A stretch of DNA of 64,000 nt. Origin: a bacterium. Its GTDB lineage: Bacteria > Patescibacteriota > Minisyncoccia > Minisyncoccales > CG1-02-41-26. Under the pieces are notes generated by a model, which searched no databases, was not told the DNA's origin, and was given only the letters and a program-made list of their open reading frames with translations. Positions 35,440 through 57,203 of this stretch are shown in pieces. The stretch's first letter is position 1. Each line of letters begins with the position of its first letter. The stretch lies in the NCBI GenBank assembly GCA_030619905.1, contig JAUXAO010000001.1:48348-112347 (forward strand), in the 5' to 3' direction. A program made the translations under genes and the position numbers.

Positions 35440-36348
35440 TTATTTCTCTTTAAAATCAAGGATAAACCCATCTGTTTTATCTTTTTTAAGATAAGAATAA
35501 AGGGATGAATTATTTTTAAGTATCTCGATCTTTTTTTCTTTAATGACAATCTTATTTCCTTTTATTATTTTATTAAGTAATGAAAAATCTATCGGAGAAA
35601 TCGGAAGAATCACTTTCTTGTAAAATAAGGTATTTTTTCTAACATATCCATCAAGGATAACCCATTTAAAAACATCAAAAAATAAGATTGGCTTAGAAAG
35701 AGTATATGTTACTACTTTTTCCACCTCAGGGGCATATTTTTTTAATAAAGCATTAATCTCTTTACCTGTTTTTATACTCTTCTGACAATTATAACTACAA
35801 GGAATATGGGAAATAAATTGCAGATATACAATAGGGATGGGAAAACGTTTATTCAAAAGAAGATATTGTTCTAATTTTTCATAGTCTTCTTTAGTATAAA
35901 GCCTAGTGGAAAAATTTAACAAATTATTTGTCAAAAAATTAAACTGTTTACTATTTTGATAGGATTGATAAGTTACAATTGGAGAATAACGTTGAAGGTT
36001 ATGTTGAAAAAAATACGAATGATTTTTAATACAACATTCTGGGTACCCTAATAATTTTCCGATTTTTTCTGAATCTTTTCTAGCAGTAAGGGAATTTACT
36101 GCCTCCTTTGCTATTTCTTTTTTCTTTGAAAGAGCACAGACTGTTATTTGTTTATTTGCTATAATTTTTTGTTTACACTCGATACTTAACTCTGGGAATT
36201 CACGGATAATTATTCTCTTTCTTTTTTCATTAAGATCCATGGTAAAACAAGGTTTTATTCCTGCTATAACTGCTAAAATTTCTTGAAGAATTACGCCTGT
36301 TTTAGAGACATTCAATAGTTTTTTTCTAAGTTTTTGGGATGTATTCAT
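35440..36348 (-). CDS. hypothetical protein (no rSAM motif) conserved inside the rSAM block
   Basis: 302 aa; LGYPECC and HIPCSYNCQ Cys motifs; no recognisable family. Confidence 0.4.
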   Translation of the reverse strand: MNTSQKLRKKLLNVSKTGVILQEILAVIAGIKPCFTMDLNEKRKRIIIREFPELSIECKQKIIANKQITVCALSKKKEIAKEAVNSLTARKDSEKIGKLLGYPECCIKNHSYFFQHNLQRYSPIVTYQSYQNSKQFNFLTNNLLNFSTRLYTKEDYEKLEQYLLLNKRFPIPIVYLQFISHIPCSYNCQKSIKTGKEINALLKKYAPEVEKVVTYTLSKPILFFDVFKWVILDGYVRKNTLFYKKVILPISPIDFSLLNKIIKGNKIVIKEKKIEILKNNSSLYSYLKKDKTDGFILDFKEK

Positions 36349-40154: not shown

Positions 40155-41297
40155 TTATTTAAATAATTGCCAGCATTGAGGGTCTGGCAAAAATTGAGGA
40201 TCTTCCAAGTAAGAATCTTTCCAGTATCCATAACTTACACATTTAGCTCCTCCTTGACATTTATCAAAATAAGTACAACTTTGACAACGAGTGTTTATAT
40301 TCCTTGGATTTCTTAATTTTTTCAATTCTTCAGATTTATAGAATATTTCTTCTAAAGATTGTTTTAAAACACTACCAACATAAATTGGCAATCTCCGGCA
40401 GGGATAAACATCACCATTTGGTAAAATTGTCAAAGAAGAGTATCCAGCTACACAGGTATTTGCCTTATATCCTTCCTGGGCTAAAATTCCATCTTCGCAA
40501 CCTATGCCTACACTCAGTTTCGATTTCTGATTGATTAACTTTCTATTAGTTTTCAGAAGGGAGAGATACAATCTTTTTGTCTCTTGAGGAGAAAGGATTA
40601 ATTTCTTCATTTCTTCTCCTCTGCCAAGAGGAATGAATCTTCTTAATCCTAGACTATTTACTCCTAACTTTCTAGCCAGTTCAATTAATAAAGAAATATC
40701 TCTTAAATTCTGTTTAGTCACTGTTACTGAAATACCCGTATTAATTCTATTTTTAACTAGTAATTCTATTGCTTTTGCTATTTTTTTAAAAGTTCCTTTG
40801 CCCCGAATTTCATCATTTTTCTCTCTCATGCCTTCTAAACTTACCTGAGCATAATCAATCTTGAATCTGTTAAGTTTAATTATTTTCTTATCGTCAAGTA
40901 ATATACCATTAGTAAGGATTCCATATCTAGTTTTTTCTCTATTTTGGTAACATTTCTTCAGAAATTCAAAAAAATCATCTCTGAGCAATGGTTCGCCACC
41001 AGTAATAGAAATTCTTGATTTGTCGCAGGGAAGGTTCCATTTTTTTAGAAGTTTCATGTAATTATCAAGAATTTCAAAAAGCTTACTTAAAAAAAGCTCA
41101 TTTTTCAAAAATTTCTCATCAAAATAACAATGCTTACAGGACAAATTGCATCTTTCCGTAATATGCCATTGTAGATGGAAAGAATCTGGTTGATATTGAG
41201 ATTCAGTAAACATTTTCTTATAATAACACACTAGTCCTATTCTGAGAAATATTTTTTGGATTATACTTTCAAAATAGAAAATCCCTTGCCAAAACAA
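40155..41297 (-). CDS. radical SAM/SPASM-domain peptide-maturase-like protein
   Basis: CNLSCKHC; GGEPL; SPASM-type C-terminus (CVAGYSSLTILPNGDVYPC ... CQSCTYFDKCQGGAKC). Confidence 0.8.
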   Translation of the reverse strand: MFWQGIFYFESIIQKIFLRIGLVCYYKKMFTESQYQPDSFHLQWHITERCNLSCKHCYFDEKFLKNELFLSKLFEILDNYMKLLKKWNLPCDKSRISITGGEPLLRDDFFEFLKKCYQNREKTRYGILTNGILLDDKKIIKLNRFKIDYAQVSLEGMREKNDEIRGKGTFKKIAKAIELLVKNRINTGISVTVTKQNLRDISLLIELARKLGVNSLGLRRFIPLGRGEEMKKLILSPQETKRLYLSLLKTNRKLINQKSKLSVGIGCEDGILAQEGYKANTCVAGYSSLTILPNGDVYPCRRLPIYVGSVLKQSLEEIFYKSEELKKLRNPRNINTRCQSCTYFDKCQGGAKCVSYGYWKDSYLEDPQFLPDPQCWQLFK

Positions 41298-41311: not shown

Positions 41312-42502
41312 TTAATCACGTCCTACTATTTTTGAGAGACATCTGATTGATCCGCCAAATTTGGTAATTCCCATACCTATTTCTACTTCTTTTACTCTAA
41401 AACCTAAAGATTCGTAAATTTCTATTGCCTTCTTATCTAGTGACTCTATCCCGTATATTGGTAAATACACAACTTTTTCCTTTCCTTTTTCTTCAATTAG
41501 AACATTATTATATGTAATAAAATGAGCAAATCTCCCGTGCAAAATCTGAGTAGAATAAATAACTCCAAAGTAAGGTATTCTTATTACTCGAAATCCCTGA
41601 TTTTCAAGTTTATCTTTTGCCTTCTCTAGTGCTCCAGAGATATCTTCGGAAAGATTTAATTCAATCTGTTTTCTAAAAATCGGTGAATCAAGAATTGAAG
41701 GATCACCTGTTTTAAGCAATAAATCTACTGCTAATCTTGAATCTCCTAAAAGCAGAGTCTTCTTTCCGATTGGAGTTAAATACATATCGATATGATCAAA
41801 TGGGGCTCTATGATTCTTGTCTCCAATGATAACCACATTTTTACCAAACATTTCTTCTAATTTCTGGATGATTTCTTGTTCATCTAATTCTAATCTACTA
41901 TTTTCCTCAATCAGAGAATATCCTATGAATACATTTCTATCATTAGATACGATGTTCCCGCCATCGAAATCTAGATCGGATACAATACTTGTCATATGAG
42001 GATATGTTTCAGATAAAGCCCTTGAAACCGCTGAATACCTTTCTGATGCAGGCACTATAAGTGTAATTCCTTTATCTTTGTTTTTAACAATAACATACCC
42101 ATCTTGTCCCCAAGGAGAAAGTTTTTCCTCGCTTTCTGGAATCAGTAATGTTCTAATAGTATTGTGGATATTCCATTTGTCTTTTATTATTTCGGGCAAT
42201 CTTTCAAAATACGACTGAGATTCGGTAATTATAGTTATCTCTACATTACTATCAAGTTCTTCTAGTATCGATCGGAAGTAACTTAGTGAGACAGACCAAA
42301 AATAATTGTTTTTTGATTGTGGAATCTGAAATACAATGTGTTGAATTTTACCTTGATTGTCTGATAATATCTTCTCTGTTTCATATCTCCGAAAAATAAG
42401 GTCTGCAAATCCGGGAACGGTCTCATTCAAAACGACCAATAAGATTATCAAAAAAATCAACGAAACTACCAAAAATGATTGTCTCTTCATCTTTTTCACC
42501 AC
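41312..42502 (-). CDS. guanidino-group-modifying enzyme superfamily protein (agmatine deiminase / PAD_porph-like), membrane-anchored
   Basis: N-terminal TM helix; WGQDG, DFDGGNIVSNDRNVFIG, HIDMYL and C-terminal GGSIRCLS (catalytic Cys in a GGxIHCxT-like context). Confidence 0.55.
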   Translation of the reverse strand: MVKKMKRQSFLVVSLIFLIILLVVLNETVPGFADLIFRRYETEKILSDNQGKIQHIVFQIPQSKNNYFWSVSLSYFRSILEELDSNVEITIITESQSYFERLPEIIKDKWNIHNTIRTLLIPESEEKLSPWGQDGYVIVKNKDKGITLIVPASERYSAVSRALSETYPHMTSIVSDLDFDGGNIVSNDRNVFIGYSLIEENSRLELDEQEIIQKLEEMFGKNVVIIGDKNHRAPFDHIDMYLTPIGKKTLLLGDSRLAVDLLLKTGDPSILDSPIFRKQIELNLSEDISGALEKAKDKLENQGFRVIRIPYFGVIYSTQILHGRFAHFITYNNVLIEEKGKEKVVYLPIYGIESLDKKAIEIYESLGFRVKEVEIGMGITKFGGSIRCLSKIVGRD

Positions 42503-42669: not shown

Positions 42670-43599
42670 CTATCTGCTCTGATTAAGATCCTTAATTTCG
42701 ACAATAGGGTGATAAAAATCATCTTCTGTCTTAATGGGTATCTTTTTTCTAATAGGTATAAATTCTTTACCTCCTACTAATTTTAAATAATCTTTATGAA
42801 TACCTAAACAATATTTTTTGTATAAGCATTTATTACAAGAAGGTAAAAAAGTAACCTCATCTTTACGCAGAGTTCTCCAATGATATTTCCATAAATTAAA
42901 ATCAATAGTGCATAAAGGGAAATGATATAAGCGAAGCTCTTTAAATTTTTTTTCCCATTTTTCAAACAAAGGTGGTAAATACTTTCTAATCTCTTTATAG
43001 GTAATACCCACCGTTTTAAAGTTCTCTCCGCATACCCCTTCCATCTCTTGAAAAAGGAGTACTACCCGGTCAACTGAAGGAAACTTATTTATTACTAAAT
43101 TAAGTATTTTATCTAAATATTTGTAATTTTGTCTGATAAGAATTATTCTTATTTCCAATTGGTGAGAATCGTTTTTATACTTCAAAACATTATGAATACC
43201 GGCTATTGTCTGGTTGAAGCTTCCTTTGACCCTAGTAATATTATCATGCATTCGAGCATTATAACCATGGATAGCTATTTCAAAAATAACATCATTTATA
43301 AAAAAACATTCTCTAGCGAATTTCGGATAACAAAACATCCTTCCGTTGGTGGCTACAACAACCTTCGTTTGGGGAAATTGTTTTCTGAACCATTTGAGTA
43401 ATCTTAAAAAATCGGGGTGAATAGTTGGCTCCCCTCCAGAGAGGTTAATTGTCTCTTCAATCTTCCCAAAAGATTTAATGTTCTGAATAATCTTTTCAAA
43501 CCTAAGAAGATCCGAATCTATTTCATTCTGAAAATTTGGAGAATTGGTGCACATTACGCAATTATTATTACATTTATTCCAAATCGAAATATCAGGCAT
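42670..43599 (-). CDS. radical SAM protein (short family 'MPxISIWNKC')
   Basis: CNNNCVMC; GGEPT; C-terminal CNKCLYKKYCLGIHKDYLKLVG. About 60% identical to 33299..34237. Confidence 0.8.
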   Translation of the reverse strand: MPDISIWNKCNNNCVMCTNSPNFQNEIDSDLLRFEKIIQNIKSFGKIEETINLSGGEPTIHPDFLRLLKWFRKQFPQTKVVVATNGRMFCYPKFARECFFINDVIFEIAIHGYNARMHDNITRVKGSFNQTIAGIHNVLKYKNDSHQLEIRIILIRQNYKYLDKILNLVINKFPSVDRVVLLFQEMEGVCGENFKTVGITYKEIRKYLPPLFEKWEKKFKELRLYHFPLCTIDFNLWKYHWRTLRKDEVTFLPSCNKCLYKKYCLGIHKDYLKLVGGKEFIPIRKKIPIKTEDDFYHPIVEIKDLNQSR

Positions 43600-43765: not shown

Positions 43766-44821
43766 TTAAATCCAACACATCGGGTCTGTTTCCAAATAAT
43801 CATCTCTTAAATTATGTGCCGTTCCTCTGCAACCACCACAAATATTTCGTTTTGGACATTTTCTACATTTACCCTTTAAATTATCTCTATTTCTTAATTT
43901 AAGAAAAAGTTCTGAGGTTAGCCAGAGATTTTTCAAATTATCCTTTCTCACATTCCCAACTTTAATCATTAATACAGGACAAGGAGTCACATCTCCAGTT
44001 GGAGTTATACATAAGCTCGTAACTCCTGCTCCACACCCACCATAAATACTTTTATAGGGACTCTTGGGATAATCGGGATCTAACAAACACTTTAACGGAT
44101 CACCGGTGCTAATTAACAATTTTCCCTCTAATTTTTTTTTATTTCTGTAAATCAATTTAAGTATTTTTTTGTTTTGTTCTTTAGTTAACGCTAAATAGCG
44201 ATTTTTTGCTCCTCTTCCAGTGGGAATAAATCGCTCCAAAGACAAGGCATTAACTTCTAATTTTAAAGCTAATTCAAAAAGTTTTTCTATTACAGGGCTT
44301 GTTTTTGTTAATGATGTTATAACTGAAACCATTGTAACTCTCATACCTTCTTTCTTGGCAATCTTAATTCCCTTAATTACTTTTCTAAATGTACCCTTTC
44401 CTCTTATTTCATCATTTAATTCAGCTGTGGGTCCATCAATACTGAAATGCATTTCTTCCATTCCAGCTTCTTTAAGTTTTTTTATAAGTCCCTTTGTAAC
44501 AATCGTTCCGTTAGTTGCTGTAGAAACTCGCAATCCAGCTTCAGAGGCTTTCTTTGTGTATTCTATGATGTGCTCATGCAACAAAGGTTCTCCACCTGAA
44601 AAAAAAAGCATCTTTACACCAGCTTCTATTATTTGATTAAGTACTTTTAAGCATTCTTCATGACTTAGCTCATCTCTCAGAGCTTTTCCGGAAAAAGAAC
44701 AGCATGTTTTGCACATTAGATTACATTTATGAGTAATTTCCCACACAACCATTATTAAACTATATTCCCTTTCTTTATTAACCATGTTTAAAAAAGTGTC
44801 AATTATTTTTTTACTTGCCAA
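43766..44821 (-). CDS. radical SAM/SPASM-domain protein (TTG start)
   Basis: CNLMCKTC; GGEPL; SPASM C-terminus (CGAGVTSLCITPTGDVTPC ... CRKCPKRNICGGC). Confidence 0.8.
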   Translation of the reverse strand: MASKKIIDTFLNMVNKEREYSLIMVVWEITHKCNLMCKTCCSFSGKALRDELSHEECLKVLNQIIEAGVKMLFFSGGEPLLHEHIIEYTKKASEAGLRVSTATNGTIVTKGLIKKLKEAGMEEMHFSIDGPTAELNDEIRGKGTFRKVIKGIKIAKKEGMRVTMVSVITSLTKTSPVIEKLFELALKLEVNALSLERFIPTGRGAKNRYLALTKEQNKKILKLIYRNKKKLEGKLLISTGDPLKCLLDPDYPKSPYKSIYGGCGAGVTSLCITPTGDVTPCPVLMIKVGNVRKDNLKNLWLTSELFLKLRNRDNLKGKCRKCPKRNICGGCRGTAHNLRDDYLETDPMCWI

Positions 44822-47811: not shown

Positions 47812-48272
47812 TATATTAAATACTAAAAAACATTAAAACTATTATTCTCTCTATTCTTTTTATCTATAGAATTTCTAAATATTCATACTAATAGATTTTA
47901 TGATACTTCTTTTTGAATCGAATTCAATAGACTTGAACCGATAAAAAAATGAACCTGCAGATACGACCGTTATTATTTTATTTTTAGGATCACCAGAATT
48001 TGTAGGAAGTGAGAAATTTATTATAGTAATATCTTTTTTCCTACTCATAATTTATTTATCTTTTATAACTATATCTAAAAAATACTTTATAAATAATTAA
48101 TAACTATTTCCTCCTAAGATGATAGTTATGTCCATCAGAAATACTTTTTACTTAAATAAAAAATAAACACTTAATTTCTTCATCGTTGGATTTGATAATA
48201 AGTGTAAAAACTTGAGATAACTTTTTCAATTTTTGCTATAAAATGCTTACGAGATCAATTACCTTAGAGATG

Positions 48273-48820: not shown

Positions 48821-50182
48821 TTATTTAATAGAGCAAAGTTCCTTTTCTACTTTATAAAGTAGATACTCCTTGCTACATTTTTGTTTTGTACTACATCTCT
48901 CCCGATTAACTTTGAACATATCACCTGTCAAAGCGATCGTTTTACTATGACATCCTCCTGCACAATTCCATTTTAAGAAACAATTTTGACAGGATTGCAT
49001 ATTGCAAACTATTCTTTTCTGTAAATAATTAATCCTTTTTTGGTTAAAAACAATTTTCTTTCTTTTTTTATCAAACCTTCCATATATTAATTCTTTCGGA
49101 GCCGTTCTTCCAAGATAGGCTTCATAACAACAGCTGATATAACTATCAGGCGTAAGAAATATATTAGGAATGGAAGCACCACAATGAGCACATGATCTTC
49201 TGTAAACTGGTAAAAAAGCACTTATTAATTTAATATTTAATTCATCCGCTAATTTTTTTGCTTCCAAATAATTCTCTATGTATAAAGCTAGGTCAGGCGC
49301 TTTGGAAAAATTATCTTTTGGCTTAAAGCTCCTTCCTGCCTCAAATATTGGCTCAAAATGAACTGATTTTATGCCTAATTTATGAAAATATTTAATTATT
49401 TCTCTCTGTTTTGTAACGGAAAAAGCAGAAATTGTAGATCTTACTGAAAAAGGATAGTTATTTTTTACCAGGAATTCAATAGTTTTCTCGACAAAAGGAC
49501 TACTTTTATCTCCATCCTTTAATGGCCTCTGTCTATCCTGAATACGAGGTGGCCCATCTATAGATACAGAAAGTTGAAAATTATTCTTTATTAAATAAAC
49601 AAGGGTTGTTTTAGGAAGTTTACCGTTTATTTGGGTACCAAAATTTAATTTATCTATCTTCTTCTCGGCATATTTAATTATTTTCTTTATTAAACCAATT
49701 GCTAAAGTGGGTTCTCCTCCTCCATGAAAGTAAATATTCAAAGATTTTTTATTTCTCTCCGAAATATAATCTAAAACTGTTTTAACAAAACTGAAGTCAA
49801 TTGTTTCCTTTATATCTCCTCCTTGAGCAAAACAATACTTACACTTTAGATTACAGTCAGTAGTCAAAAGGATGAAGAGGTCACCATAATATCGAAACTT
49901 AGTATAAGGATTACAGTAAGAACGAAAAATATTACTATCTTTATTTAACAACAACTTAGCTTGAGAAAATGCTTTTTGTTTATCTTTCGGTATCTTCTTA
50001 GAATTAAGCAGATTTTTTGCCTCTTTATCTAATAAAAAAACTCTGTTTAGCAAAGAACTATAAAGAACATAATCATTTTTTATTTTACCAATATAATGTA
50101 GGTCTGGTATAATTTTTAAATCATCACCGAAACTTATTTTTGCATACGAATTATCTAAAAAATCAATAAAGTTTATTCTCAT
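48821..50182 (-). CDS. radical SAM/SPASM protein directly upstream-adjacent to the HxS-repeat genes (HxsB/HxsC-like candidate)
   Basis: CNLKCKYCFAQGGDIKE; GGGEPT; SPASM (CAHCGASIPNIFLTPDSYISCC ... CQNCFLKWNCAGGCH). Confidence 0.8.
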   Translation of the reverse strand: MRINFIDFLDNSYAKISFGDDLKIIPDLHYIGKIKNDYVLYSSLLNRVFLLDKEAKNLLNSKKIPKDKQKAFSQAKLLLNKDSNIFRSYCNPYTKFRYYGDLFILLTTDCNLKCKYCFAQGGDIKETIDFSFVKTVLDYISERNKKSLNIYFHGGGEPTLAIGLIKKIIKYAEKKIDKLNFGTQINGKLPKTTLVYLIKNNFQLSVSIDGPPRIQDRQRPLKDGDKSSPFVEKTIEFLVKNNYPFSVRSTISAFSVTKQREIIKYFHKLGIKSVHFEPIFEAGRSFKPKDNFSKAPDLALYIENYLEAKKLADELNIKLISAFLPVYRRSCAHCGASIPNIFLTPDSYISCCYEAYLGRTAPKELIYGRFDKKRKKIVFNQKRINYLQKRIVCNMQSCQNCFLKWNCAGGCHSKTIALTGDMFKVNRERCSTKQKCSKEYLLYKVEKELCSIK

Positions 50183-50205
50183 AAAAAGGAATTCTAATCA
50201 GGATA

Positions 50206-50745
50206 TTATATTTCTGCCCCAACTCCCGCACAACAAGGACAAGCACTACCATGGGAAGAATGATTAGAATGGGAGTCGTGAGAACTATGGGAACCATGAG
50301 AACCATGAGAAGAATGAGAAGAATGGGAGGCATGAGAACAATGAGATTGATGAGAACTATGAGAACTGTGAGATCCATGAGATCCATGAGATCCATGGGA
50401 AGAATGGGAAGAATGGGAACTGTGCGAGCCATGCGAGCCGTGGGAAACATGGGATCCATGAGAGCCATGCGAGCCATGAGAGACATGAGAAGAATGGGAG
50501 CCATGCGAGCCATGGGAAACATGAGAAGAATGGGATGTATGGGAGGCATGGGAAGAATGGGAAGAGTGGTCACATTTCCACTCTGCCTGAACATCCTTAG
50601 CGATCATAGACCCTCCTACAGCTGCACCTAACACAAGAAGCATTGTTCCTGCTTTAACAATGTCTTTTTTATTGACATTTCCTTCTTCAGAGGTAAGAAA
50701 GGCTTTAATATTCTTTTTAAATTTTGGCAATAATTTGTTTTCCAT
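50206..50745 (-). CDS. His-Xaa-Ser repeat precursor-like protein (HxsA-like), copy 1: leader followed by about 35 consecutive HxS triplets and a Cys-rich tail
   Basis: MENKLLPKFKKNIKAFLTSEEGNVNKKDIVKAGTMLLVLGAAVGGSMIAKDVQAEWKCD, then HSS HSS HAS HTS HSS HVS HGS ... HGS, then ACPCCAGVGAEI. The leader is shared with copy 2. Confidence 0.8.
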   Translation of the reverse strand: MENKLLPKFKKNIKAFLTSEEGNVNKKDIVKAGTMLLVLGAAVGGSMIAKDVQAEWKCDHSSHSSHASHTSHSSHVSHGSHGSHSSHVSHGSHGSHGSHVSHGSHGSHSSHSSHSSHGSHGSHGSHSSHSSHQSHCSHASHSSHSSHGSHGSHSSHDSHSNHSSHGSACPCCAGVGAEI

Positions 50746-50770
50746 TTTTTATCTATATTCGAATATTTTA

Positions 50771-51166
50771 TTAACACCAACCACCCTGAGCATGAGAACT
50801 ATGAGAACCGTGTGAGGCATGAGAACAATGGGAACTATGGGAACGATGGCAAGAACTATGAGATCCATGGGAAGAATGGGAAGAATGGGAACTGTGCGAG
50901 CCATGCGAGCCATGAGAGACATGAGAAGAATGGGAGCCATGCGAGCCATGAGAGACATGAGAAGAATGGGAAGAATGGGAACCATGGGAAGAATGTTCAC
51001 ACTCAGGCCACTGGGCTTGCACTTCACGAGCAATCATAGACCCTCCTACAGCTGCACCTAACACAAGAAGCATTGTTCCTGCTTTAACAATGTCTTTTTT
51101 ATTGACATTTCCTTCTTCAGAGGTAAGAAAGGCTTTAATATTCTTTTTAAATTTTGGTAGCTTCAT
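50771..51166 (-). CDS. His-Xaa-Ser repeat precursor-like protein (HxsA-like), copy 2: same leader followed by about 22 HxS triplets and a Cys/Trp tail
   Basis: MKLPKFKKNIKAFLTSEEGNVNKKDIVKAGTMLLVLGAAVGGSMIAREVQAQWPECE, then HSS HGS HSS HSS HVS ..., then AQGGWC. Confidence 0.8.
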   Translation of the reverse strand: MKLPKFKKNIKAFLTSEEGNVNKKDIVKAGTMLLVLGAAVGGSMIAREVQAQWPECEHSSHGSHSSHSSHVSHGSHGSHSSHVSHGSHGSHSSHSSHSSHGSHSSCHRSHSSHCSHASHGSHSSHAQGGWC

Positions 51167-51630
51167 TCTTGTTCACTTACCATTTTAGTTATTCTAATAG
51201 CTGTAAATTCATTAAGTTCATTGATTCCATCACGAGTTGACTCAATTGTCACTACTACAACATCATCGTCTACGCCTATTTCAGAAAACTCACAGGGATT
51301 TTTTTGTTTGTCATCTACGTAGTAAACTTCACACTCTGTATTGTTTGTAAGTTTGATAGTCTTTTCCATTGTTTCTTCCTGGGCATTTTCAATTAGAAAG
51401 GTTCTTGCTTCTATTTTAAAAGTCATTTCTTCAGAATCGATTGCCTTAACTATCCCCTCTATAAGATTATTTGGATATTCTTCTTCCAAAAGTTCTCTGT
51501 CTTCCTCTTCAGTAACAGGAGGCTGATAGGTCAATGCCAGAAAACCGATCAGAGCAACAATAATTACTCCTATTAAAATAAATAAATTCCTTTTATTTTT
51601 TTTCATAATTTTCATAATTTCAGTTTTCAT
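51163..51630 (-). CDS. cluster-specific membrane-anchored protein (paralog of 56841..57203)
   Basis: N-terminal TM helix. The YPNNLIEGI and NEFTAIRITKM motifs are shared with 56841..57203 (YPPNLIEGK, SKFTATKISKF). Confidence 0.45.
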   Translation of the reverse strand: MKTEIMKIMKKNKRNLFILIGVIIVALIGFLALTYQPPVTEEEDRELLEEEYPNNLIEGIVKAIDSEEMTFKIEARTFLIENAQEETMEKTIKLTNNTECEVYYVDDKQKNPCEFSEIGVDDDVVVVTIESTRDGINELNEFTAIRITKMVSEQE

Positions 51631-51719
51631 AATTTTATATTATTATATTATTATATGTTATTATATTATTTTATCTTACCAAATTAGACAGTGTCAAGCA
51701 ATTATCTTAAAAATTATAT

Positions 51720-52802
51720 CTAAAAGCAAATCTCTTCCTCTATTCTTTGAATATAATGGTTAAATAAGTTGTTACTTAAAGCATTAAGTTTAATTTTCTT
51801 GGAGGCTTTTAAACAAAGATTACGGCATATTCCATATACTTTCTCAGCTTTTTTATCAGCATAAGGATAATCAGAAGAATAATTTAATTGGCACATCTGA
51901 CAATTATGATTTTTAAAATTATATTTGCACTTTTTAAAACTTCCAAAAAATCCGGAATTAACATTGCCAATAATATATTTCTCTTTATCTGGAGAGTTTA
52001 ACAAAAAAGGGGAAAAGGCCATTATGCCTGAGGGATAAACTTCCAGGTTATACCAGAAAGGACATTCGATCCTAAGCGATTGACTGATTTTCTGATACTT
52101 AATTTCCCAATTAACCGGATTTAGAAATATAAAGTTCTCTTTTTGAATATTAATGAGAATAAAATCTATAATTTTATTGAAACTCGAAATAAATTTCTTC
52201 TGAGCCTCTTTTGACCATTCTTCGTACTGCTGGATTATTTCAAAACTCATATGATTAAAGCCGAGTTTTAATAGATGTTTAAAATTCTTTTCCATCCTTA
52301 TTACCGTAGAAGGAAATAAACAGAAACCAACGCCTAAATTCTTTCTGGGAATTTTTTCAAAAATCATTGGTAGTTTTTTTGAAATTATTTCATAAGTACC
52401 TTCGTTTTTCTCCAGATTTCTGAATTTATCCTGGTCAGACCTTCCTCCCACCAAGCTGATAATTAATTTTATGTCATGTTTTTCTAGAAAATCTAAATGT
52501 TTTTTTTCGAGCAAAACAGCGTTCGTACAAACTGTTGTGGTCAAATTCTTTTTCAACTTTTTAGCTTGAGATATCGCATAAGGTACCATTTCCTTAATTA
52601 ACTTAAAATTAAGTAAAGGTTCACCGCCATAAATTGATAAAAGTTTATCTTCCCCCCGCGATTTTAACAACAAATCAATACTATTTTTGGCAGTAGTAAG
52701 GTCCATGTATTCATTAGTCTTTTTTACAAAACAGTAATCACAGTTAAGATTACATTTTGTAGTTATGGCTAATTTTATTCTGTTTATTCGTTTTTTTATC
52801 AT
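51720..52802 (-). CDS. radical SAM protein with Cys-rich C-terminal (twitch/SPASM-like) region
   Basis: CNLNCDYC; GGEPL; C-terminal CPFWYN ... CQMCQLNYS ... CRNLC. Confidence 0.75.
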   Translation of the reverse strand: MIKKRINRIKLAITTKCNLNCDYCFVKKTNEYMDLTTAKNSIDLLLKSRGEDKLLSIYGGEPLLNFKLIKEMVPYAISQAKKLKKNLTTTVCTNAVLLEKKHLDFLEKHDIKLIISLVGGRSDQDKFRNLEKNEGTYEIISKKLPMIFEKIPRKNLGVGFCLFPSTVIRMEKNFKHLLKLGFNHMSFEIIQQYEEWSKEAQKKFISSFNKIIDFILINIQKENFIFLNPVNWEIKYQKISQSLRIECPFWYNLEVYPSGIMAFSPFLLNSPDKEKYIIGNVNSGFFGSFKKCKYNFKNHNCQMCQLNYSSDYPYADKKAEKVYGICRNLCLKASKKIKLNALSNNLFNHYIQRIEEEICF

Positions 52803-52803
52803 T

Positions 52804-53664
52804 TTATCTAAAATAAACCTCCAATTGTTTATTTTTAATAGCTATGAAGCTAACTCTAAAGTTTTTAACATGAGTTTTAATTTGTTCTAAAAAAGATTTA
52901 TGGGAGCTGAAACAAGACATTTTTGAAAACTGTTTGAAATCTAATCCTTTACAGCGAAAATATATGTCTTTTGAAAAAGGTTTATTATTTCTAAATCTAG
53001 TTAGTAAACCAATTCTTTTTATCGGCTTCAACTTATTAAGTTGTTGGAATACATTTTTCTCTTCCTTTCTTAAAATTTTAGAAGATGCTTTTATCGCCTG
53101 ATAAATTTTTAATGAACACTCACCATTTGGATAAAAATCGAAAATAATATTTTCTATATTAGTAAAATTTTGGTAAAGTGACTCCCATCTCTTTATTCCC
53201 AAAAATTTGCCTATAGTGGGTAGTAATTTAGTACTAACAGGATTTAAACCGATGCTAATTTTATCGAATTGGTTGCTAAAAGAATTAAAATCAACGTAAA
53301 ATACGATTACGTCATTTTTTCTTCCATGGGATAATGGAATAGATAAGATAAAATCTAAGATTTTTCGGTTAAACTTGAATTTAAAATTATCACTAATTTT
53401 TTTAAAAATATTTAATAGAATATCGCCTTTTATAAAATCTTGACATTTTTTTCGTCCAGAAAGCTTTGAATAATGAAAACAATAGGTAGCCTTAACCACT
53501 TTAAATTTTTCCATAGTGTTAAAAGAACTTTCAATATGATATCTTACCTTAGATTTTCTTAGATTATCGCCTAAATCAACTATCTTAAAAAATAACTTCT
53601 GGGTCTTTTTCGGGACTTTTATTAAAAATTTACTCGCCCATTTTTTATATTTATTTCTAGTCAT
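52804..53664 (-). CDS. hypothetical protein (no rSAM motif) inside the Hxs-like core
   Basis: 286 aa, basic, no recognisable motifs; packed at 2-nt spacing between rSAM genes. Confidence 0.4.
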   Translation of the reverse strand: MTRNKYKKWASKFLIKVPKKTQKLFFKIVDLGDNLRKSKVRYHIESSFNTMEKFKVVKATYCFHYSKLSGRKKCQDFIKGDILLNIFKKISDNFKFKFNRKILDFILSIPLSHGRKNDVIVFYVDFNSFSNQFDKISIGLNPVSTKLLPTIGKFLGIKRWESLYQNFTNIENIIFDFYPNGECSLKIYQAIKASSKILRKEEKNVFQQLNKLKPIKRIGLLTRFRNNKPFSKDIYFRCKGLDFKQFSKMSCFSSHKSFLEQIKTHVKNFRVSFIAIKNKQLEVYFR

Positions 53665-53680
53665 AATGGTCTACTTTTAG

Positions 53681-54787
53681 TCATAATGGTCTACTTTTCC
53701 ATTTTAAGATATTCTTTATTTTTAGAAAAGAAGAAATATAAATTTTTGAAATATTACAAAAGGTTTTAAAATATTTTTTAAAATCTTTCTCATTCTCAAT
53801 GCACCAGAGATATAAACCTATAGGACAAAAACAGTAATTTTCTAAAGAACACTTCAGACAACTATTTTGAGTTGATTCAACTATTTCTCTTTTTGCCTTT
53901 TTTAATAGCTCTAATCTTTTTACATAATTAACTCCTTTTTCTCCATTGCCAATTATGTATTTTTTTCTTCTGTTATCAAAGAAAGAAAATATTTTGTCAC
54001 AAAGATAAAAGTTCCCATCTGGACCTAATATCAGTTTTTGGCAGCAGAAATTATCACTATCTTTGTTCAACATCCTATTTATAAAAAGAATTTCGAGAGA
54101 AGAATCATAATTAGAATTCAAACTGCTATAAAATTCAGCAAATATATCAAATTCTTTTTTTAAAACATTAAGATGCTTCTTTGACCATAATCTATATATT
54201 TCTGGATAAAAATCTAGCTGGGAAAAACCATTCTCAACAAAAAACTTAATATTTTTGTTAAAATATTCTACTGTTTCCGGAGTAAAAACCGAACAAATCT
54301 TAATCTTTTTTTTATCCAAATCCTTGATATTACCCCAAGTTGTCTTAAAAACAGAAGATTTTCCATCTTTAAACACTCTATTTATATCATTTATATTTTT
54401 TCTACCATCTAGGCTCACTGAAAGAACAATATTATTTTTCTTTAAAAAGTCATACTTTTTTTTATTAAGTAAAGTTCCATTGGTAGAAACTATTATAATA
54501 GATTCCTTCCCTTTTTGGTTTTTCCTAACCGATTCTATTAATTTTTTTAGAGAAGACCAATATAACAAAGGTTCTCCTCCGGTAAAACTTATAACAGGAT
54601 TTTCTGAAGGATTTCTCAAAAAGAAATTAATTCCTTTTTTTATTAAAGGAATATTTAAAGGGATTTTTCTCAGGTTTTCTTTATCAATAAAACAATAGCT
54701 GCAATCAAGATTGCAGCTCCCACCAAGAAAAATAGAAAGAGAATGATATTTCATAAATAATACTAATGTTATCTTCTGCTGGTCCAT
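53681..54787 (-). CDS. radical SAM/SPASM-like protein (HxsC-like candidate)
   Basis: CNLDCSYC; GGEPL; C-terminal CCQKLILGPDGNFYLC ... CLKCSLENYCFC. Confidence 0.75.
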   Translation of the reverse strand: MDQQKITLVLFMKYHSLSIFLGGSCNLDCSYCFIDKENLRKIPLNIPLIKKGINFFLRNPSENPVISFTGGEPLLYWSSLKKLIESVRKNQKGKESIIIVSTNGTLLNKKKYDFLKKNNIVLSVSLDGRKNINDINRVFKDGKSSVFKTTWGNIKDLDKKKIKICSVFTPETVEYFNKNIKFFVENGFSQLDFYPEIYRLWSKKHLNVLKKEFDIFAEFYSSLNSNYDSSLEILFINRMLNKDSDNFCCQKLILGPDGNFYLCDKIFSFFDNRRKKYIIGNGEKGVNYVKRLELLKKAKREIVESTQNSCLKCSLENYCFCPIGLYLWCIENEKDFKKYFKTFCNISKIYISSFLKIKNILKWKSRPL

Positions 54788-56214
54788 TTCTTAAGCACCT
54801 TTAAACTCTTGGGTTCTTCGAATTTCTGGAATAGATAATCTAAGATACCTCTGTTTACCTGACAGCGAAAATTATTTGGAGTCTGGGAAAAAATGTTATC
54901 ACCTTCAGAATAATTAAAGACAGGACAAACTCCACAATAAGGAAGGTAAACGCACTCGCTGCATCCGCTAAGCCCTTCTAATGTGGAAGCAAGACATAAA
55001 GATTTAGTTACTGGTGAAGAAATAATTTCCTCATAACTATTTTTGTAGACATTACCAATTTTAAATGTCTCATCACCCATCTGACCGAGCATTCTTCCCT
55101 CATCGCACGTGTAAATGTCTCCGTTATAATGATAAGCTATCTGGCCGATACCTGCTCCACAAGGGGAGCGAAGATCTAAAAAATTAGGATCATTATCAGT
55201 AAATACTTTTTGAATAATTATAGCTGCTGTTCTTTCTCTAATCCTTACTCCTTTGATATTTAATTTTATAATATAGTCTAACGCCTTCTTGTAAAATTCA
55301 AGAAATTCCTCTGCTGTATATCCTATCACCTTTTGAAGACTCTTGGCCATTCCAAAAGGATTAAGGGGTCTTAGATGAATATCTCTCGCGCCTAATTTCA
55401 CATATTCATCGACAATCTCTTTCCAGAAAGGAAGAGAATATCGGGTTGTGGTTACTAAAGCGTTTACTCGATATCCCAAACCCCTATATTTATCTTTTAC
55501 CTTTTTAATTCTTTGTAATGTAATAGAATGACCATTCTTTTTATTAATCATTGGCCTATTCTTATTATGAAGCTTTTCTGGTCCGTCCAAGGAACTGCAC
55601 ATAGAAATCTTTTTGTTATAGAGCCAATTTAATTTCTTGTCATCCAAGAGTGTCAGGGTGGAAACTAAACTAAACCTTAATTTTTTCTTTGCTTTCTTAT
55701 TTTTCTCAAGCGCATAATCTACAATAAATTTAACTATCTCAAAATTTGCCAATGGTTCTCCTCCCTGAAATTCAATAATAATCTCAGAGGAAGTAGTTTG
55801 GAAAATCATATCTACTACCTTTTTGGCCGTCTTTTTCGTCATATCTAAATCTTTCCTAGCCATACTTTTCGAGGAAGCATGACAATATATACAAGCATGG
55901 TCGCAACGAAGAGTAATAACAATAATATGCAAACTTGGTCCTTGGGTTAAATATTTATGACGCTGAGCATATATTTGAGTCATCTGCATCTGACAATTTT
56001 GACAATTCCACGATTCAGAAGTAAAATGTTTTTTATCTAATTCCTTGTAGATAATACTGTTTCTTTTCAATTTACCTTGCGTGAAATCTTTAAATTCCTT
56101 TTCCTTAAGGAATCTAAAATCACCAAGATCATTGGTTAAAAGATATTTATTTCCTAATTTCCTAAAGCGAAGAAGTCCTGTTGAATTAATTTTTGATTTA
56201 TTATGATTATGCAT
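54769..56214 (-). CDS. radical SAM/SPASM protein with an N-terminal extension (about 100 aa) (HxsB-like candidate)
   Basis: CDHACIYC; GGEPL; SPASM (CGAGIGQIAYHYNGDIYTC ... CSECVYLPYCGVC). Adjacent to the HxsD-like gene. Confidence 0.8.
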   Translation of the reverse strand: MHNHNKSKINSTGLLRFRKLGNKYLLTNDLGDFRFLKEKEFKDFTQGKLKRNSIIYKELDKKHFTSESWNCQNCQMQMTQIYAQRHKYLTQGPSLHIIVITLRCDHACIYCHASSKSMARKDLDMTKKTAKKVVDMIFQTTSSEIIIEFQGGEPLANFEIVKFIVDYALEKNKKAKKKLRFSLVSTLTLLDDKKLNWLYNKKISMCSSLDGPEKLHNKNRPMINKKNGHSITLQRIKKVKDKYRGLGYRVNALVTTTRYSLPFWKEIVDEYVKLGARDIHLRPLNPFGMAKSLQKVIGYTAEEFLEFYKKALDYIIKLNIKGVRIRERTAAIIIQKVFTDNDPNFLDLRSPCGAGIGQIAYHYNGDIYTCDEGRMLGQMGDETFKIGNVYKNSYEEIISSPVTKSLCLASTLEGLSGCSECVYLPYCGVCPVFNYSEGDNIFSQTPNNFRCQVNRGILDYLFQKFEEPKSLKVLKKWTSRR

Positions 56215-56410
56215 TTTTAATTAATCCTAAAACATAATTACAAAATTCTTCTTTTATCACATTTCTTGATTCTGGATCTATATTTTTCAAATCAACTTTG
56301 ATATTTTTTTTACCCACTTCTATATCAAAATCAGCCAATCCTTTATAGTCATGGATGGCTTTTTCAATAGATTTCAGATTGTAAAAATTCCTATTGAAGT
56401 TAATAGTCAT
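56207..56410 (-). CDS. 67-aa hypothetical protein between the HxsD-like gene and the rSAM gene
   Basis: Overlaps both neighbours by 4-8 nt (translational coupling); no motifs. Confidence 0.3.
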   Translation of the reverse strand: MTINFNRNFYNLKSIEKAIHDYKGLADFDIEVGKKNIKVDLKNIDPESRNVIKEEFCNYVLGLIKNA

Positions 56411-56844
56411 GATTTTTTCTTCTCTCCATATCTTTCTTCCCAGGGTACAGCAATCCCAAGAGGATCTTCTTCAAATACTTCTTCTACTCCTTTTTCTCTC
56501 GTCTCTTGGGGAGAAAGAGCAGAAAATAAAGCTCTTTCAACAATAGTATCGCGAATCTTTCCTGTATTCTTGGCAATAGACAGTCTTAAAACATAATTCA
56601 GAAGTTCATTCTTAAATTCCCCGACTAATATTTCCAGTTCCTTGGAATTTAATTCCTTTTTTCCTTTTATGGAAACTTTTATTTCTTTTTTAGGATTCCC
56701 ATTTAAAAATAAATAAGCCCGATCAATAAAAACATAACAGGCTCCATAAACAGCTTCTAAAGGATACACGTCAGGATTAAGAGAGATTATAATCTCATTC
56801 TTTTTTTTAGTAATTTTTATACTTTTTTTATTTTTTGATTTCAT
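56407..56844 (-). CDS. HxsD-like protein (His-Xaa-Ser system accessory protein candidate)
   Basis: 145 aa. It contains ELLNYVLRL, resembling the LLNDYxLRE signature after which the HxsD family model is named. Located first in the operon. Confidence 0.45.
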   Translation of the reverse strand: MKSKNKKSIKITKKKNEIIISLNPDVYPLEAVYGACYVFIDRAYLFLNGNPKKEIKVSIKGKKELNSKELEILVGEFKNELLNYVLRLSIAKNTGKIRDTIVERALFSALSPQETREKGVEEVFEEDPLGIAVPWEERYGEKKKS

Positions 56845-57203
56845 TTACTTTTCTGATAATTAACGAATTTACTTATTTTAGTGGCTGTAAATTTACTGAT
56901 CTCATCTATTTTTTCATAGGTTGGTTCTTTGGTACTGATTACTATACAATCTCCTTTTCTAAATCTCGAAAACATTATGAGAGATTCTTTCTTTGTGGCC
57001 ATATCATATAATACAAGTTTAGTTTTTGGGGTAAGTTTAATTGTTTTTTTCATAAAAGGAGCCTTGGCCGTGCTAATTTTTGAAGTATCTGCATTCAAAA
57101 CCAAACTCTTTGGAATTGAGTAGTCAATTTTTAAAATCTTGCCTTCTATTAGATTAGGAGGATATTCTAACTCAGGCTGTATTTGTTTCTTCTTTTTTCG
57201 CAT
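56841..57203 (-). CDS. cluster-specific protein, paralog of 51163..51630 (lacks the TM anchor)
   Basis: Shares the YPPNLIEGK and SKFTATKISKF motifs with 51163..51630. Confidence 0.4.
   Translation of the reverse strand: MRKKKKQIQPELEYPPNLIEGKILKIDYSIPKSLVLNADTSKISTAKAPFMKKTIKLTPKTKLVLYDMATKKESLIMFSRFRKGDCIVISTKEPTYEKIDEISKFTATKISKFVNYQKSK

What the first reader, a model, noticed from the sequence alone, without database searches (positions are those of the whole stretch)
50601..51166. About 125 nt of perfect nucleotide identity between the two precursor leaders, and a 9-nt periodic GC-rich tract in the repeats
The segment atcatagaccctcctacagctgcacctaacacaagaag…ttctttttaaattttgg is identical at 50611-50737 and 51041-51160, while the downstream repeat tracts differ in length. 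This indicates recent duplication or gene conversion of the leader, with expansion or contraction of the HxS array. The array DNA is a degenerate 9-nt tandem repeat (catgagaVc/catgggaRg) and is noticeably more GC-rich than the genome. It is prone to slipped-strand length variation. It also creates long spurious alternative-frame ORFs (MGRMIRMG…, LMSLMARM…).
Basis: seen in the sequence. Interest (0 to 1): 0.55.

Follow-up and report, generated by a model that had tools for sequence, protein, structure and literature searches.

The report
Tandem HxsA4 genes homogenised by gene conversion
Two neighbouring genes for His-x-Ser repeat proteins in a Patescibacteria (candidate phyla radiation) genome keep 125 bases of identical leader sequence because one copy repeatedly overwrites the other, while their repeat tracts grow and shrink in 9-base steps; it is a clean but unsurprising case of known processes in a known gene family.

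Summary
It sits in the 5' coding parts of two tandem minus-strand genes, 50206-50745 (179 aa) and 50771-51166 (131 aa). Both score above the curated NCBIfam cut-off for His-Xaa-Ser repeat protein HxsA4. The repeat tracts have a 9-nt period and higher-order 18- and 36-nt periods. Their GC is 48-49% against 32% for the window, mostly because of His/Ser/Gly codons.

Three related genomes, at 87% and 79% nucleotide identity, carry both paralogs with paralog-specific linkers and tails. The duplication is therefore old. In the leader, 8 variable sites group by genome and none by paralog. This is concerted evolution by gene conversion, not recent duplication. Ortholog lengths differ only by multiples of 9 nt (36, 72, 81), which confirms array expansion and contraction.

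The alternative-frame ORFs are spurious; one was called in place of the real gene in a public annotation. HxsB and HxsD lie 4-6 kb upstream, within an island of 15 radical-SAM genes. Function is inferred by analogy with the E. coli HXS antiphage system. I rate it a new member of a known kind, of moderate-low interest.

The parts
50206..50745 (-). hxsA4 paralog A, 179 aa: leader, linker AKDVQAEWKCDH, about 36 H-x-S units, tail GSACPCCAGVGAEI
   Evidence: ORF. NCBIfam NF038313 HxsA4 96.4 bits (cut-off 55) and NF038309 HxsA3 70.8 bits (cut-off 65). Orthologs of 152 aa (L001) and 191 aa (L007/L044).
50771..51166 (-). hxsA4 paralog B, 131 aa: leader, linker AREVQAQWPECEH, about 22 H-x-S units interrupted by one Cys codon, tail AQGGWC
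   Evidence: ORF. HxsA4 71.0 bits and HxsA3 65.4 bits. Orthologs of 119 aa (P0001/L001) and 155 aa (L007/L044).
50603..50727 (-). Copy 1 of the 125-nt exact repeat (gene-conversion tract). It encodes PKFKKNIKAFLTSEEGNVNKKDIVKAGTMLLVLGAAVGGSMI of paralog A.
51033..51157 (-). Copy 2 of the 125-nt exact repeat, encoding the same 42 residues of paralog B
50566..50601 (-). Paralog-specific linker of A (AKDVQAEWKCDH). It is not homogenised and forms the 3' edge of the conversion tract.
   Evidence: 12 of 36 nt differ from paralog B, but only 2 of 36 from the L001 ortholog.
50993..51031 (-). Paralog-specific linker of B (AREVQAQWPECEH)
   Evidence: 3 of 39 nt differ from the L001 ortholog and 7 of 39 from the L007 ortholog.
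50251..50568 (-). HxS array of A: 9-nt period with 18- and 36-nt higher-order periods; GC 48%
50795..50995 (-). HxS array of B: 9-nt period with a 36-nt unit (SSHVSHGSHGSH) present twice; GC 49%
   Evidence: The same unit is present 1x in L001 and 4x in L007/L044.
51163..51630 (-). Conserved upstream partner ORF of 155 aa with an N-terminal hydrophobic helix. Its stop overlaps the start of paralog B by 4 nt.
   Evidence: Syntenic in L001, L002, L007, L008, L040 and L044. It has a 39%-identical paralog at 56841-57203. No Pfam or NCBIfam family matched.
51668..51697 (-). Promoter-like site TTGACA-18-TAAAAT (11 of 12 positions) upstream of the 155-aa ORF. It is a candidate start of the unit 155-aa ORF - hxsA4-B - hxsA4-A - rSAM.
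   Evidence: consensus match only. No terminator-like site was found in 49800-52000.
48821..50182 (-). Radical SAM/SPASM peptide-maturase-like gene, 23 nt downstream of paralog A and always adjacent to hxsA4 in relatives
   Evidence: PapB 140 bits and HxsB 100 bits, both below cut-off. Synteny.
54769..56214 (-). HxsB radical SAM/SPASM maturase
   Evidence: TIGR03978 535.9 bits, cut-off 370.
56407..56844 (-). HxsD
   Evidence: TIGR03976 63.9 bits, cut-off 50. The orthologs in L040 and L044 carry PF27806 HxsD.

Best explanation
The finding covers two tandem, co-oriented paralogs of the HxsA4 class of His-Xaa-Ser repeat proteins, in a Patescibacteria (CPR) genome.

Shown:
- The duplication is old, because both paralogs have orthologs in genomes 13% and 21% diverged.
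- The 125-nt leader-coding segment is kept identical within a genome by recurrent non-reciprocal recombination (gene conversion) between the copies.
- The tract starts where homology starts (codon Pro-7 of A, Pro-4 of B). It ends at a strongly diverged, paralog-specific linker.
- The HxS arrays evolve by in-frame gain and loss of 9-nt units, mostly as 36-nt blocks. Array blocks are also exchanged between the paralogs.
- The raised GC content and the long alternative-frame ORFs are by-products of a periodic His/Ser/Gly coding sequence.

Inferred:
- The mechanism of unit gain and loss is replication slippage or unequal recombination.
- The homogenised segment encodes the part of the protein that the shared maturation and export machinery must recognise. 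That part is the conserved motif LPxIKKxIKAFLTSEEGxVNKK followed by a signal-peptide-like hydrophobic helix. Selection therefore tolerates or favours identical leaders, while the linkers, arrays and Cys-containing tails diverge.
- By analogy with the E. coli HXS system, the proteins are modified in the cytoplasm by HxsB, HxsD and neighbouring radical SAM enzymes. They are then exported so that the His-rich array acts outside the membrane.
For: Identity and family.

Old duplication: both paralogs, with conserved A-type and B-type linkers and tails, occur in L001, L007 and L044. Background identity to the window is 86.7% and about 79%.

Concerted evolution of the leader:
- Paralogs differ at 0-1 of 126 nt in the window and at 1 of 126 in L001.
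- Orthologs differ at 5-15 of 126.
- There are 8 genome-specific sites shared by both paralogs and 0 paralog-specific sites.
- Polarising with L007 gives at least 4 derived changes in both L001 copies and 1 in both window copies. Conversion therefore happened separately in each lineage.

Mosaic divergence: 0 of 126 differences in the leader against 12 of 36 in the linker, Fisher p = 2.8e-9. The run-length permutation gave 5 of 100000.

Control: two copies 5 kb apart in L003 diverge evenly along their whole length.

Second example: dispersed paralogs in L025 share a 133-nt perfect block at a different position.

Arrays:
- Ortholog length differences are 36, 72, 81 and 36 nt.
- The unit (SSHVSHGSHGSH)n has n = 1, 2 and 4 in paralog B across the three lineages.
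- The four L007 copies of the 36-nt unit share L007-specific synonymous states.
- Window paralogs A and B share a 54-nt exact block, longer than A shares with its own ortholog (32 nt).

Coding frame: ortholog differences in gene B are 12 synonymous and 2 non-synonymous, counted by me from the alignment.

System context: HxsB and HxsD score above cut-off. A SPASM rSAM is always adjacent.

Leader features: conserved motif and a hydrophobic stretch with KD up to 2.1 over residues 29-49.

Functional analogy: Li et al. 2026, PMC13128918.
Against: No reads are available. Perfect identity (0 rather than 1-2 true differences) could be sharpened by an assembler choosing one path for both copies. L008 has a 10-N scaffold gap exactly inside such a pair.

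The leader protein is under strong purifying selection, being nearly invariant across 19 metagenome contigs. Part of the low divergence is therefore selection rather than conversion.

In L007/L044 the two leaders differ at 11 of 126 nt, so homogenisation is episodic and not universal.

The functional part is analogy only:
- No canonical HxsA (TIGR03979) match.
- No peptidoglycan-binding domain.
- No rSAM reaches the HxsC or HxsC4 cut-offs.
- No PADLOC defence model matched beyond generic rSAM similarity.
- No signal-peptide predictor was available.
Confidence: 0.82

Rival explanations
1. A very recent tandem duplication that has not yet had time to diverge. No gene conversion is involved.
For: The genes are adjacent and co-oriented, and they align end to end.
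Against: Both paralogs, with their distinctive linkers and tails, exist in genomes 13% and 21% diverged. Within the window the linker differs at 12 of 36 nt next to a leader with 0 of 126 differences. A uniform recent duplication cannot give that mosaic.
Confidence: 0.03
2. Assembly artefact. A repeat was collapsed or duplicated, or small differences between the two copies were erased by the metagenome assembler.
For: L008 has an N-gap inside the equivalent gene pair. In 8 of the 19 metagenome contigs that carry this leader, the match lies within about 200 nt of a contig end (my count). Repeats of this kind do trouble assemblers.
Against: The same order (155-aa ORF, B, A, rSAM) was assembled independently in L001, L007 and L044, and L007 and L044 agree at 99.8%. 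Where the copies truly differ (11 of 126 nt in L007/L044) the assemblies keep the differences. The genome-grouping site pattern would not arise from collapse.
Confidence: 0.07
3. The identity reflects selection on the nucleotide sequence itself, for example an RNA structure, a regulatory site or an antisense element inside the leader, rather than recombination.
For: The leader is more conserved between genomes (90-96% nt) than the flanks (79-87%).
Against: Orthologous leaders differ at 5-15 mostly synonymous sites, so the nucleotide sequence is not fixed. The same substitutions appear in both paralogs of a genome, which selection on one sequence does not predict. There is no Rfam match at E <= 1. 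The + strand ORFs over the leader are short and not conserved as such.
Confidence: 0.05

Closest known systems
NCBIfam NF038313 'His-Xaa-Ser repeat protein HxsA4' (and NF038309 HxsA3)
   Same: Both window proteins score above the curated cut-offs (96.4 and 71.0 bits against 55; 70.8 and 65.4 bits against 65) over the leader and the first repeats. Relatives are labelled HxsA4 in NCBI MAG annotations (P0017).
   Different: These families are defined only by curated models. I found no paper describing HxsA4. Tandem paralogs with a homogenised leader are not part of the family definition.
HXS antiphage system of E. coli and Klebsiella (HxsA-D; Haft & Basu 2011 as cited in PMC9062424; Li et al. 2026, PMC13128918)
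   Same: The window has HxsB and HxsD above cut-off, and a His-x-Ser repeat substrate with an N-terminal hydrophobic export-like segment. In E. coli, HxsB, HxsC and HxsD mature HxsA before it acts in the periplasm.
   Different: E. coli HxsA has 5 HxS repeats plus a peptidoglycan-binding domain, and the gene order is D-B-C-A. In that study, 99.7% of HXS systems were found in Pseudomonadota. Here there are 22-36 repeats, no such domain, no canonical HxsA or HxsC match, two substrates, and a 23-kb island with 15 rSAM genes in a Patescibacteria genome.
RiPP clusters with several precursor genes that share a conserved leader and have variable cores (cyanobactins and others; review PMC13500794)
   Same: One recognition segment is shared by several substrates, and variability is confined to the part downstream of it.
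   Different: Here the sharing is at the nucleotide level and is demonstrably maintained by gene conversion. The 'core' is a long low-complexity array on a 131-179 aa protein, not a short peptide. Whether the leader is removed is unknown.
Concerted evolution of tandem paralogs, and length-variable in-frame coding repeats
   Same: Sites group by genome and not by paralog, tracts are bounded by loss of homology, and repeat number changes in whole units. My classification of this pattern rests on general knowledge.
   Different: Nothing mechanistically different was detected. All changes are in frame, so this is length variation and not on/off phase variation.

Membership tests
HxsA4 (NCBIfam NF038313) | Score at or above the curated cut-off of the family model | tested here: met
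   96.4 bits (A) and 71.0 bits (B) against a cut-off of 55.
HxsA4 (NCBIfam NF038313) | Tandem His-Xaa-Ser repeats downstream of an N-terminal leader | tested here: met
   About 36 and 22 H-x-S units follow a 45-48 aa leader. The leader motif is conserved in 16 relatives.
Canonical HxsA (TIGR03979) / E. coli HXS effector | Match to the canonical HxsA model | tested here: not met
   Only HxsA4 and HxsA3 (plus weak collagen-like hits) were reported at E <= 0.01.
Canonical HxsA (TIGR03979) / E. coli HXS effector | Peptidoglycan-binding domain in HxsA (Li et al. 2026) | tested here: not met
   Paralog A has no Pfam domain. Both proteins consist only of leader, linker, array and a 6-14 aa tail.
HXS system (HxsA-D) | HxsB radical SAM/SPASM maturase present | tested here: met
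   54769-56214 scores 535.9 bits on TIGR03978 against a cut-off of 370.
HXS system (HxsA-D) | HxsC radical SAM partner present | tested here: inconclusive
   Six HxsC-like rSAMs have HxsC or HxsC4 as best hit but fall below cut-off. The best is 42670-43599, at 184.6 bits against 267.9. HxsC4 scores are 111-184 bits against 500.
HXS system (HxsA-D) | HxsD present | tested here: met
   56407-56844 scores 63.9 bits on TIGR03976 against a cut-off of 50.
HXS system (HxsA-D) | Gene order HxsD-HxsB-HxsC-HxsA | tested here: not met
   D and B are adjacent. Between B and the hxsA4 pair lie two SPASM-type rSAMs, a 286-aa ORF of unknown function and the 155-aa ORF. The HxsC-like genes lie downstream of hxsA4.
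HXS system (HxsA-D) | rSAM-dependent modification and processing of HxsA, and antiphage activity | not testable with these tools
   This needs expression, mass spectrometry and phage assays. PADLOC v2 has no specific model for it.
Concerted evolution by gene conversion | Paralogs within a genome are more alike than orthologs between genomes, with lineage-specific substitutions shared by both paralogs | tested here: met
   There are 0-1 differences against 5-15 of 126 nt, with 8 genome-grouping and 0 paralog-grouping sites.
Concerted evolution by gene conversion | Mosaic pattern: the converted tract is flanked by sequence that keeps orthologous relationships | tested here: met
   The linker differs at 12-15 of 36 nt between paralogs and at 2-7 of 36 between orthologs. 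Fisher p = 2.8e-9.

The most novel reading that the evidence does not exclude
The HxsA4 leader plus HxS array may be a portable N-terminal module in a Patescibacteria clade. Recombination would keep the recognition and export segment uniform. The array length (10 to about 50 units) would be retuned quickly, and the module would be joined to different C-terminal ends: Cys-rich tails, GGWC, or a ~330-aa domain of unknown fold. That would make it a diversification strategy for an rSAM-matured envelope effector, possibly an HXS-like barrier against phage DNA entry in bacteria with minimal genomes.
Probability: 0.15. Interest if true: 0.6.

Novelty: new member of a known kind. Interest (0 to 1): 0.33.

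Why it matters
First, the result is a warning for annotation. The periodic array makes gene callers pick wrong-frame ORFs (seen in L040), and neither window HxsA4 protein was found in the public gene-call index.

Second, the locus cleanly separates what is constrained from what is free in HxsA4 proteins. The leader is shared and kept identical. The linker and tail are paralog-specific. The array is length-labile. This points experimenters to the leader as the segment recognised by the maturases or the export machinery.

Third, it places an HXS-like system in Patescibacteria. Its only characterised relative is a 2026 E. coli antiphage system. The Patescibacteria version has a much larger radical-SAM complement, which is a lead for new peptide chemistry. 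The nucleotide-level phenomenon itself is textbook concerted evolution.

Tried and rejected
- Exact look-ups of both HxsA4 proteins and of the adjacent rSAM in the contig index found nothing. The neighbouring proteins, including that rSAM, are in the protein collection from an NCBI contig of 216,170 bp, so the HxsA4 genes were probably not called there.
- A 16-sequence leader alignment was too diverse for the search for related loci. A 6-sequence subset worked.
- Rfam with permissive thresholds over 49500-52000 gave no match, so an RNA element is not supported.
- The terminator scan found none in 49800-52000.
- PADLOC gave only generic viperin-like rSAM similarity.
- Pfam found nothing for the ~330-aa C-terminal domain fused to some relatives, nor for the 155-aa partner ORF.
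- HGT of the island was considered because HxsB clusters at >=90% protein identity while trigger factor is 65% identical in L044. I rejected it: nucleotide identity is 77% on the housekeeping side and 82% on the HxsA side, which is not a sharp discontinuity.
- The 'Pacearchaeota' label of L007 is rejected as a misbin. The 99.8%-identical L044 contig carries bacterial trigger factor, ClpP and PNPase.
- On/off phase variation is rejected because all indels are in frame.
- I did not run structure prediction, because a low-complexity array would give no usable model.

Full report
**What is in the sequence**

The region holds two adjacent minus-strand ORFs, 50206-50745 (179 aa, 'A') and 50771-51166 (131 aa, 'B'). 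At an offset of 430 nt the longest exact match is 125 nt, 50603-50727 = 51033-51157. One mismatch follows, then partial similarity; the repeat finder extends the repeat to 150 nt at 94%.

Tandem Repeats Finder reports period 9 (27.7 and 14.3 copies) and higher-order periods of 18, 36 and 45 in both arrays. Array GC is 48.0% and 49.0%, leader GC is 33-35%, and the window is 32.3%.

Most of the GC excess follows from the amino-acid composition. GC of 44.6-45.0% is expected from His/Ser/Gly codons with local codon usage. The remainder comes from enrichment of TCC and GGC codons.

The long ORFs in other frames (126 aa and 80 aa on the + strand; 143 aa and 94 aa on the - strand) exist. They arise because a periodic sequence lacks stop codons in several frames.

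**What the genes are**

Both proteins exceed the curated NCBIfam cut-offs for HxsA4 (96.4 and 71.0 bits against 55) and HxsA3. They do not match the canonical HxsA model.

Each protein has four parts:
- A leader of 45-48 aa. It contains the motif PKFKKNIKAFLTSEEGNVNKK and a hydrophobic stretch GTMLLVLGAAVGGSMIA (KD up to 2.1 over 15 residues).
- A short Trp/Cys linker: AKDVQAEWKCDH in A and AREVQAQWPECEH in B.
- An array of about 36 (A) or about 22 (B) H-x-S units.
- A short tail: GSACPCCAGVGAEI in A and AQGGWC in B.

The leader motif is conserved in 16 distant relatives.

Upstream on the same strand lie HxsB (54769-56214, 535.9 bits against 370) and HxsD (56407-56844, 63.9 bits against 50). 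A SPASM-type rSAM (48821-50182) starts 23 nt after gene A. A 155-aa ORF with an N-terminal hydrophobic helix overlaps the start of gene B. Both neighbours are syntenic in all close relatives.

Fifteen ORFs with a CxxxCxxC motif lie between 33.3 and 56.2 kb. Six of them have HxsC or HxsC4 as best hit but score below cut-off.

Trigger factor, ClpP and PNPase show that the organism is a bacterium. The best named trigger-factor relatives are Patescibacteria, Paceibacteria and Parcubacteria. Twelve of the 14 genome hits to the leader carry Patescibacteria-group labels (Saccharibacteria, Falkowbacteria or 'Patescibacteria group').

**Why the leaders are identical**

Three related assemblies carry both paralogs in the same order:
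- L001, at 86.7% nt identity to the window.
- L007 and L044, which are 99.8% identical to each other and about 77-82% identical to the window.

In all of them, A keeps the AKDVQAEWKC[DS]H linker and the ACPCCAG[VI]GAEI tail. B keeps the [AP]REVQA[QE]WPxCEH linker and the AQGGWC tail. The duplication therefore predates these lineages.

Over the 126 leader nt the pattern is as follows:

| Comparison | Differences (of 126 nt) |
|---|---|
| Paralogs within the window | 0-1 |
| Paralogs within L001 | 1 |
| Paralogs within L007 | 11 |
| Orthologs between genomes | 5-15 |

Of 20 variable sites, 8 are genome-specific and shared by both paralogs. None is paralog-specific. Ten are singletons.

Polarising with L007 gives at least four derived substitutions present in both L001 copies. 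These include the AAA to CAA (Lys to Gln) change. One derived substitution is present in both window copies. Homogenisation therefore occurred separately in each lineage.

The adjacent linker shows the opposite pattern. It differs at 12-15 of 36 nt between paralogs and at 2-7 of 36 between orthologs. The contrast of 0/126 against 12/36 gives Fisher p = 2.8e-9. A 125-nt identical run was reached in 5 of 100000 column shuffles.

This is the signature of gene conversion with a tract bounded by loss of homology. It is not the signature of a recent duplication.

Two further loci support this reading. The two copies 5 kb apart in L003 diverge evenly along their whole length, which serves as a control. 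Two dispersed copies in L025 share a 133-nt perfect block that spans the leader end, the linker and the first array units, which is another mosaic.

**Array dynamics**

| Paralog | L001 | Window | L007/L044 |
|---|---|---|---|
| B | 360 nt | 396 nt | 468 nt |
| A | 459 nt | 540 nt | 576 nt |

All length differences are multiples of 9 nt.

In B the 36-nt block encoding SSHVSHGSHGSH is present 1, 2 and 4 times. The L007 copies share L007-specific synonymous states and differ from the window's copies. The blocks therefore expanded recently within each lineage.

Window A and B share a 54-nt exact array block. That is longer than A shares with its own ortholog (32 nt), which indicates exchange between the arrays as well.

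The two assemblies at 99.8% identity (L007 and L044) have identical gene lengths. Length change is therefore not seen at that shallow divergence.

All indels are in frame. Across the wider family, arrays range from about 10 to about 50 units.

**Spurious ORFs and annotation**

In L040 the public gene call over the array is a 119-aa wrong-frame ORF (MVLTAPTVLIV...), not HxsA4. Exact look-ups found neither window HxsA4 protein in the contig index. The neighbouring proteins are on record.

L008 has a 10-N scaffold gap inside the equivalent gene pair.

**How it probably works (inference)**

[quoted passage not shown] A +8 Da modification was mapped to an SHRSS motif in the processed protein. [quoted passage not shown]

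By analogy, I propose the following for the two HxsA4 proteins:
- They are substrates of HxsB, HxsD and the adjacent rSAMs.
- The homogenised leader is the shared recognition and export segment.
- The His-rich arrays act outside the membrane.

The differences from E. coli are substantial. There are 22-36 repeats instead of 5. There is no peptidoglycan-binding domain and no rSAM above the HxsC cut-off. The gene order differs, there are two substrates, and the host is a Patescibacteria genome. That study found 99.7% of HXS systems in Pseudomonadota. Membership in the HXS defence system is therefore not established. Membership in HxsA4 is.

**Rivals**

- Recent duplication is contradicted by the comparative data.
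- An assembly artefact cannot be excluded for the last one or two differences without reads. However, the arrangement is reproduced in independent assemblies, and true differences are preserved where they exist (L007/L044).
- Nucleotide-level selection, such as an RNA element, is not supported. Orthologs differ at synonymous sites, the substitutions are shared between paralogs, and Rfam finds nothing.

**Verdict**

The cause is gene conversion, not recent duplication, and array changes occur mostly in 36-nt blocks.

The genes are new members of a curated but unpublished family, within a variant HXS-like island. The evolutionary mechanism is well known. Interest is moderate-low. The main leads are the rSAM-dense island and the modular use of the leader in this clade.

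Noticed in passing
window 33299-56214: This is an island with 15 ORFs carrying the radical-SAM CxxxCxxC motif in about 23 kb. It comprises HxsB, four further SPASM-type maturase-like genes that have HxsB among their hits, SPASM-type genes at 40155-41297 and 43766-44821, six HxsC/HxsC4-like genes below cut-off, and two more ORFs at 33299 and 34474 that I did not scan. It also holds a DUF483 protein (35440-36348) and a PAD_porph-like protein (41312-42502). A relative (L045) has unrelated genes, including TatC and TatA, directly after ClpP, so the island is accessory.
   Followed up: partly
window 47812-48272, compared with L001:5470-6834, L040:7004-8365 and L044:17893-19238: Relatives carry a B12-binding radical SAM gene (about 454 aa), and L040 and L044 also carry a DUF6580 gene, between the SBP_bac_3 gene and the 620-aa rSAM. 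The window has only about 460 nt with small ORFs there, which is an apparent deletion.
   Followed up: partly
window 51720-54787, compared with L040:1472-3422: In L040, HxsB is followed directly by the 150-aa partner ORF and a single hxsA4. The window, L001 and L044 have two extra SPASM rSAMs and a 286-aa ORF with no family match inserted there. L007 and L044 have a further 327-336 aa ORF. The accessory rSAM content varies between close relatives.
   Followed up: partly
window 51163-51630 and 56841-57203: These are two paralogous small proteins (39% identity over 108 aa, E = 6e-19) with no family match. One sits immediately upstream of the hxsA4 pair and the other immediately upstream of hxsD. 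Both are conserved in synteny in relatives.
   Followed up: partly
L022, L029, L032, L035 (metagenome contigs): These proteins have the same leader (EEGNVNKKDIVKAGTM) and an HxS array fused to a ~330-aa C-terminal domain beginning C[GS]CPF[IL]L[VL]W[ND]GKKF. That domain has no Pfam match. Other leader-sharing proteins end in varied Cys-rich tails (L025, L033, L038).
   Followed up: partly
L007 (NCBI JAFCDK010000057.1): The record is labelled Candidatus Pacearchaeota archaeon. It is 99.8% identical to L044, a 35.7-kb contig that carries bacterial trigger factor, ClpP, PNPase and DksA in synteny with the window. This is probably a binning or taxonomy error.
   Followed up: yes
L008:6255-6264 (JAHCRD010000010.1): A run of 10 N joins the array of a first hxsA4 gene to the leader end of a second. 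The result reads as one chimeric 204-aa ORF, an assembly consequence of the duplicated leader and array.
   Followed up: yes
window 50836-50851 (paralog B, residues 106-110): A single extra Cys codon (TGC) shifts the H-x-S register and creates SSCHRSHSSHCSH. This is conserved in all three B orthologs. It contains an H-R-S unit reminiscent of the SHRSS site that is modified in E. coli HxsA. Its significance is unknown.
   Followed up: no
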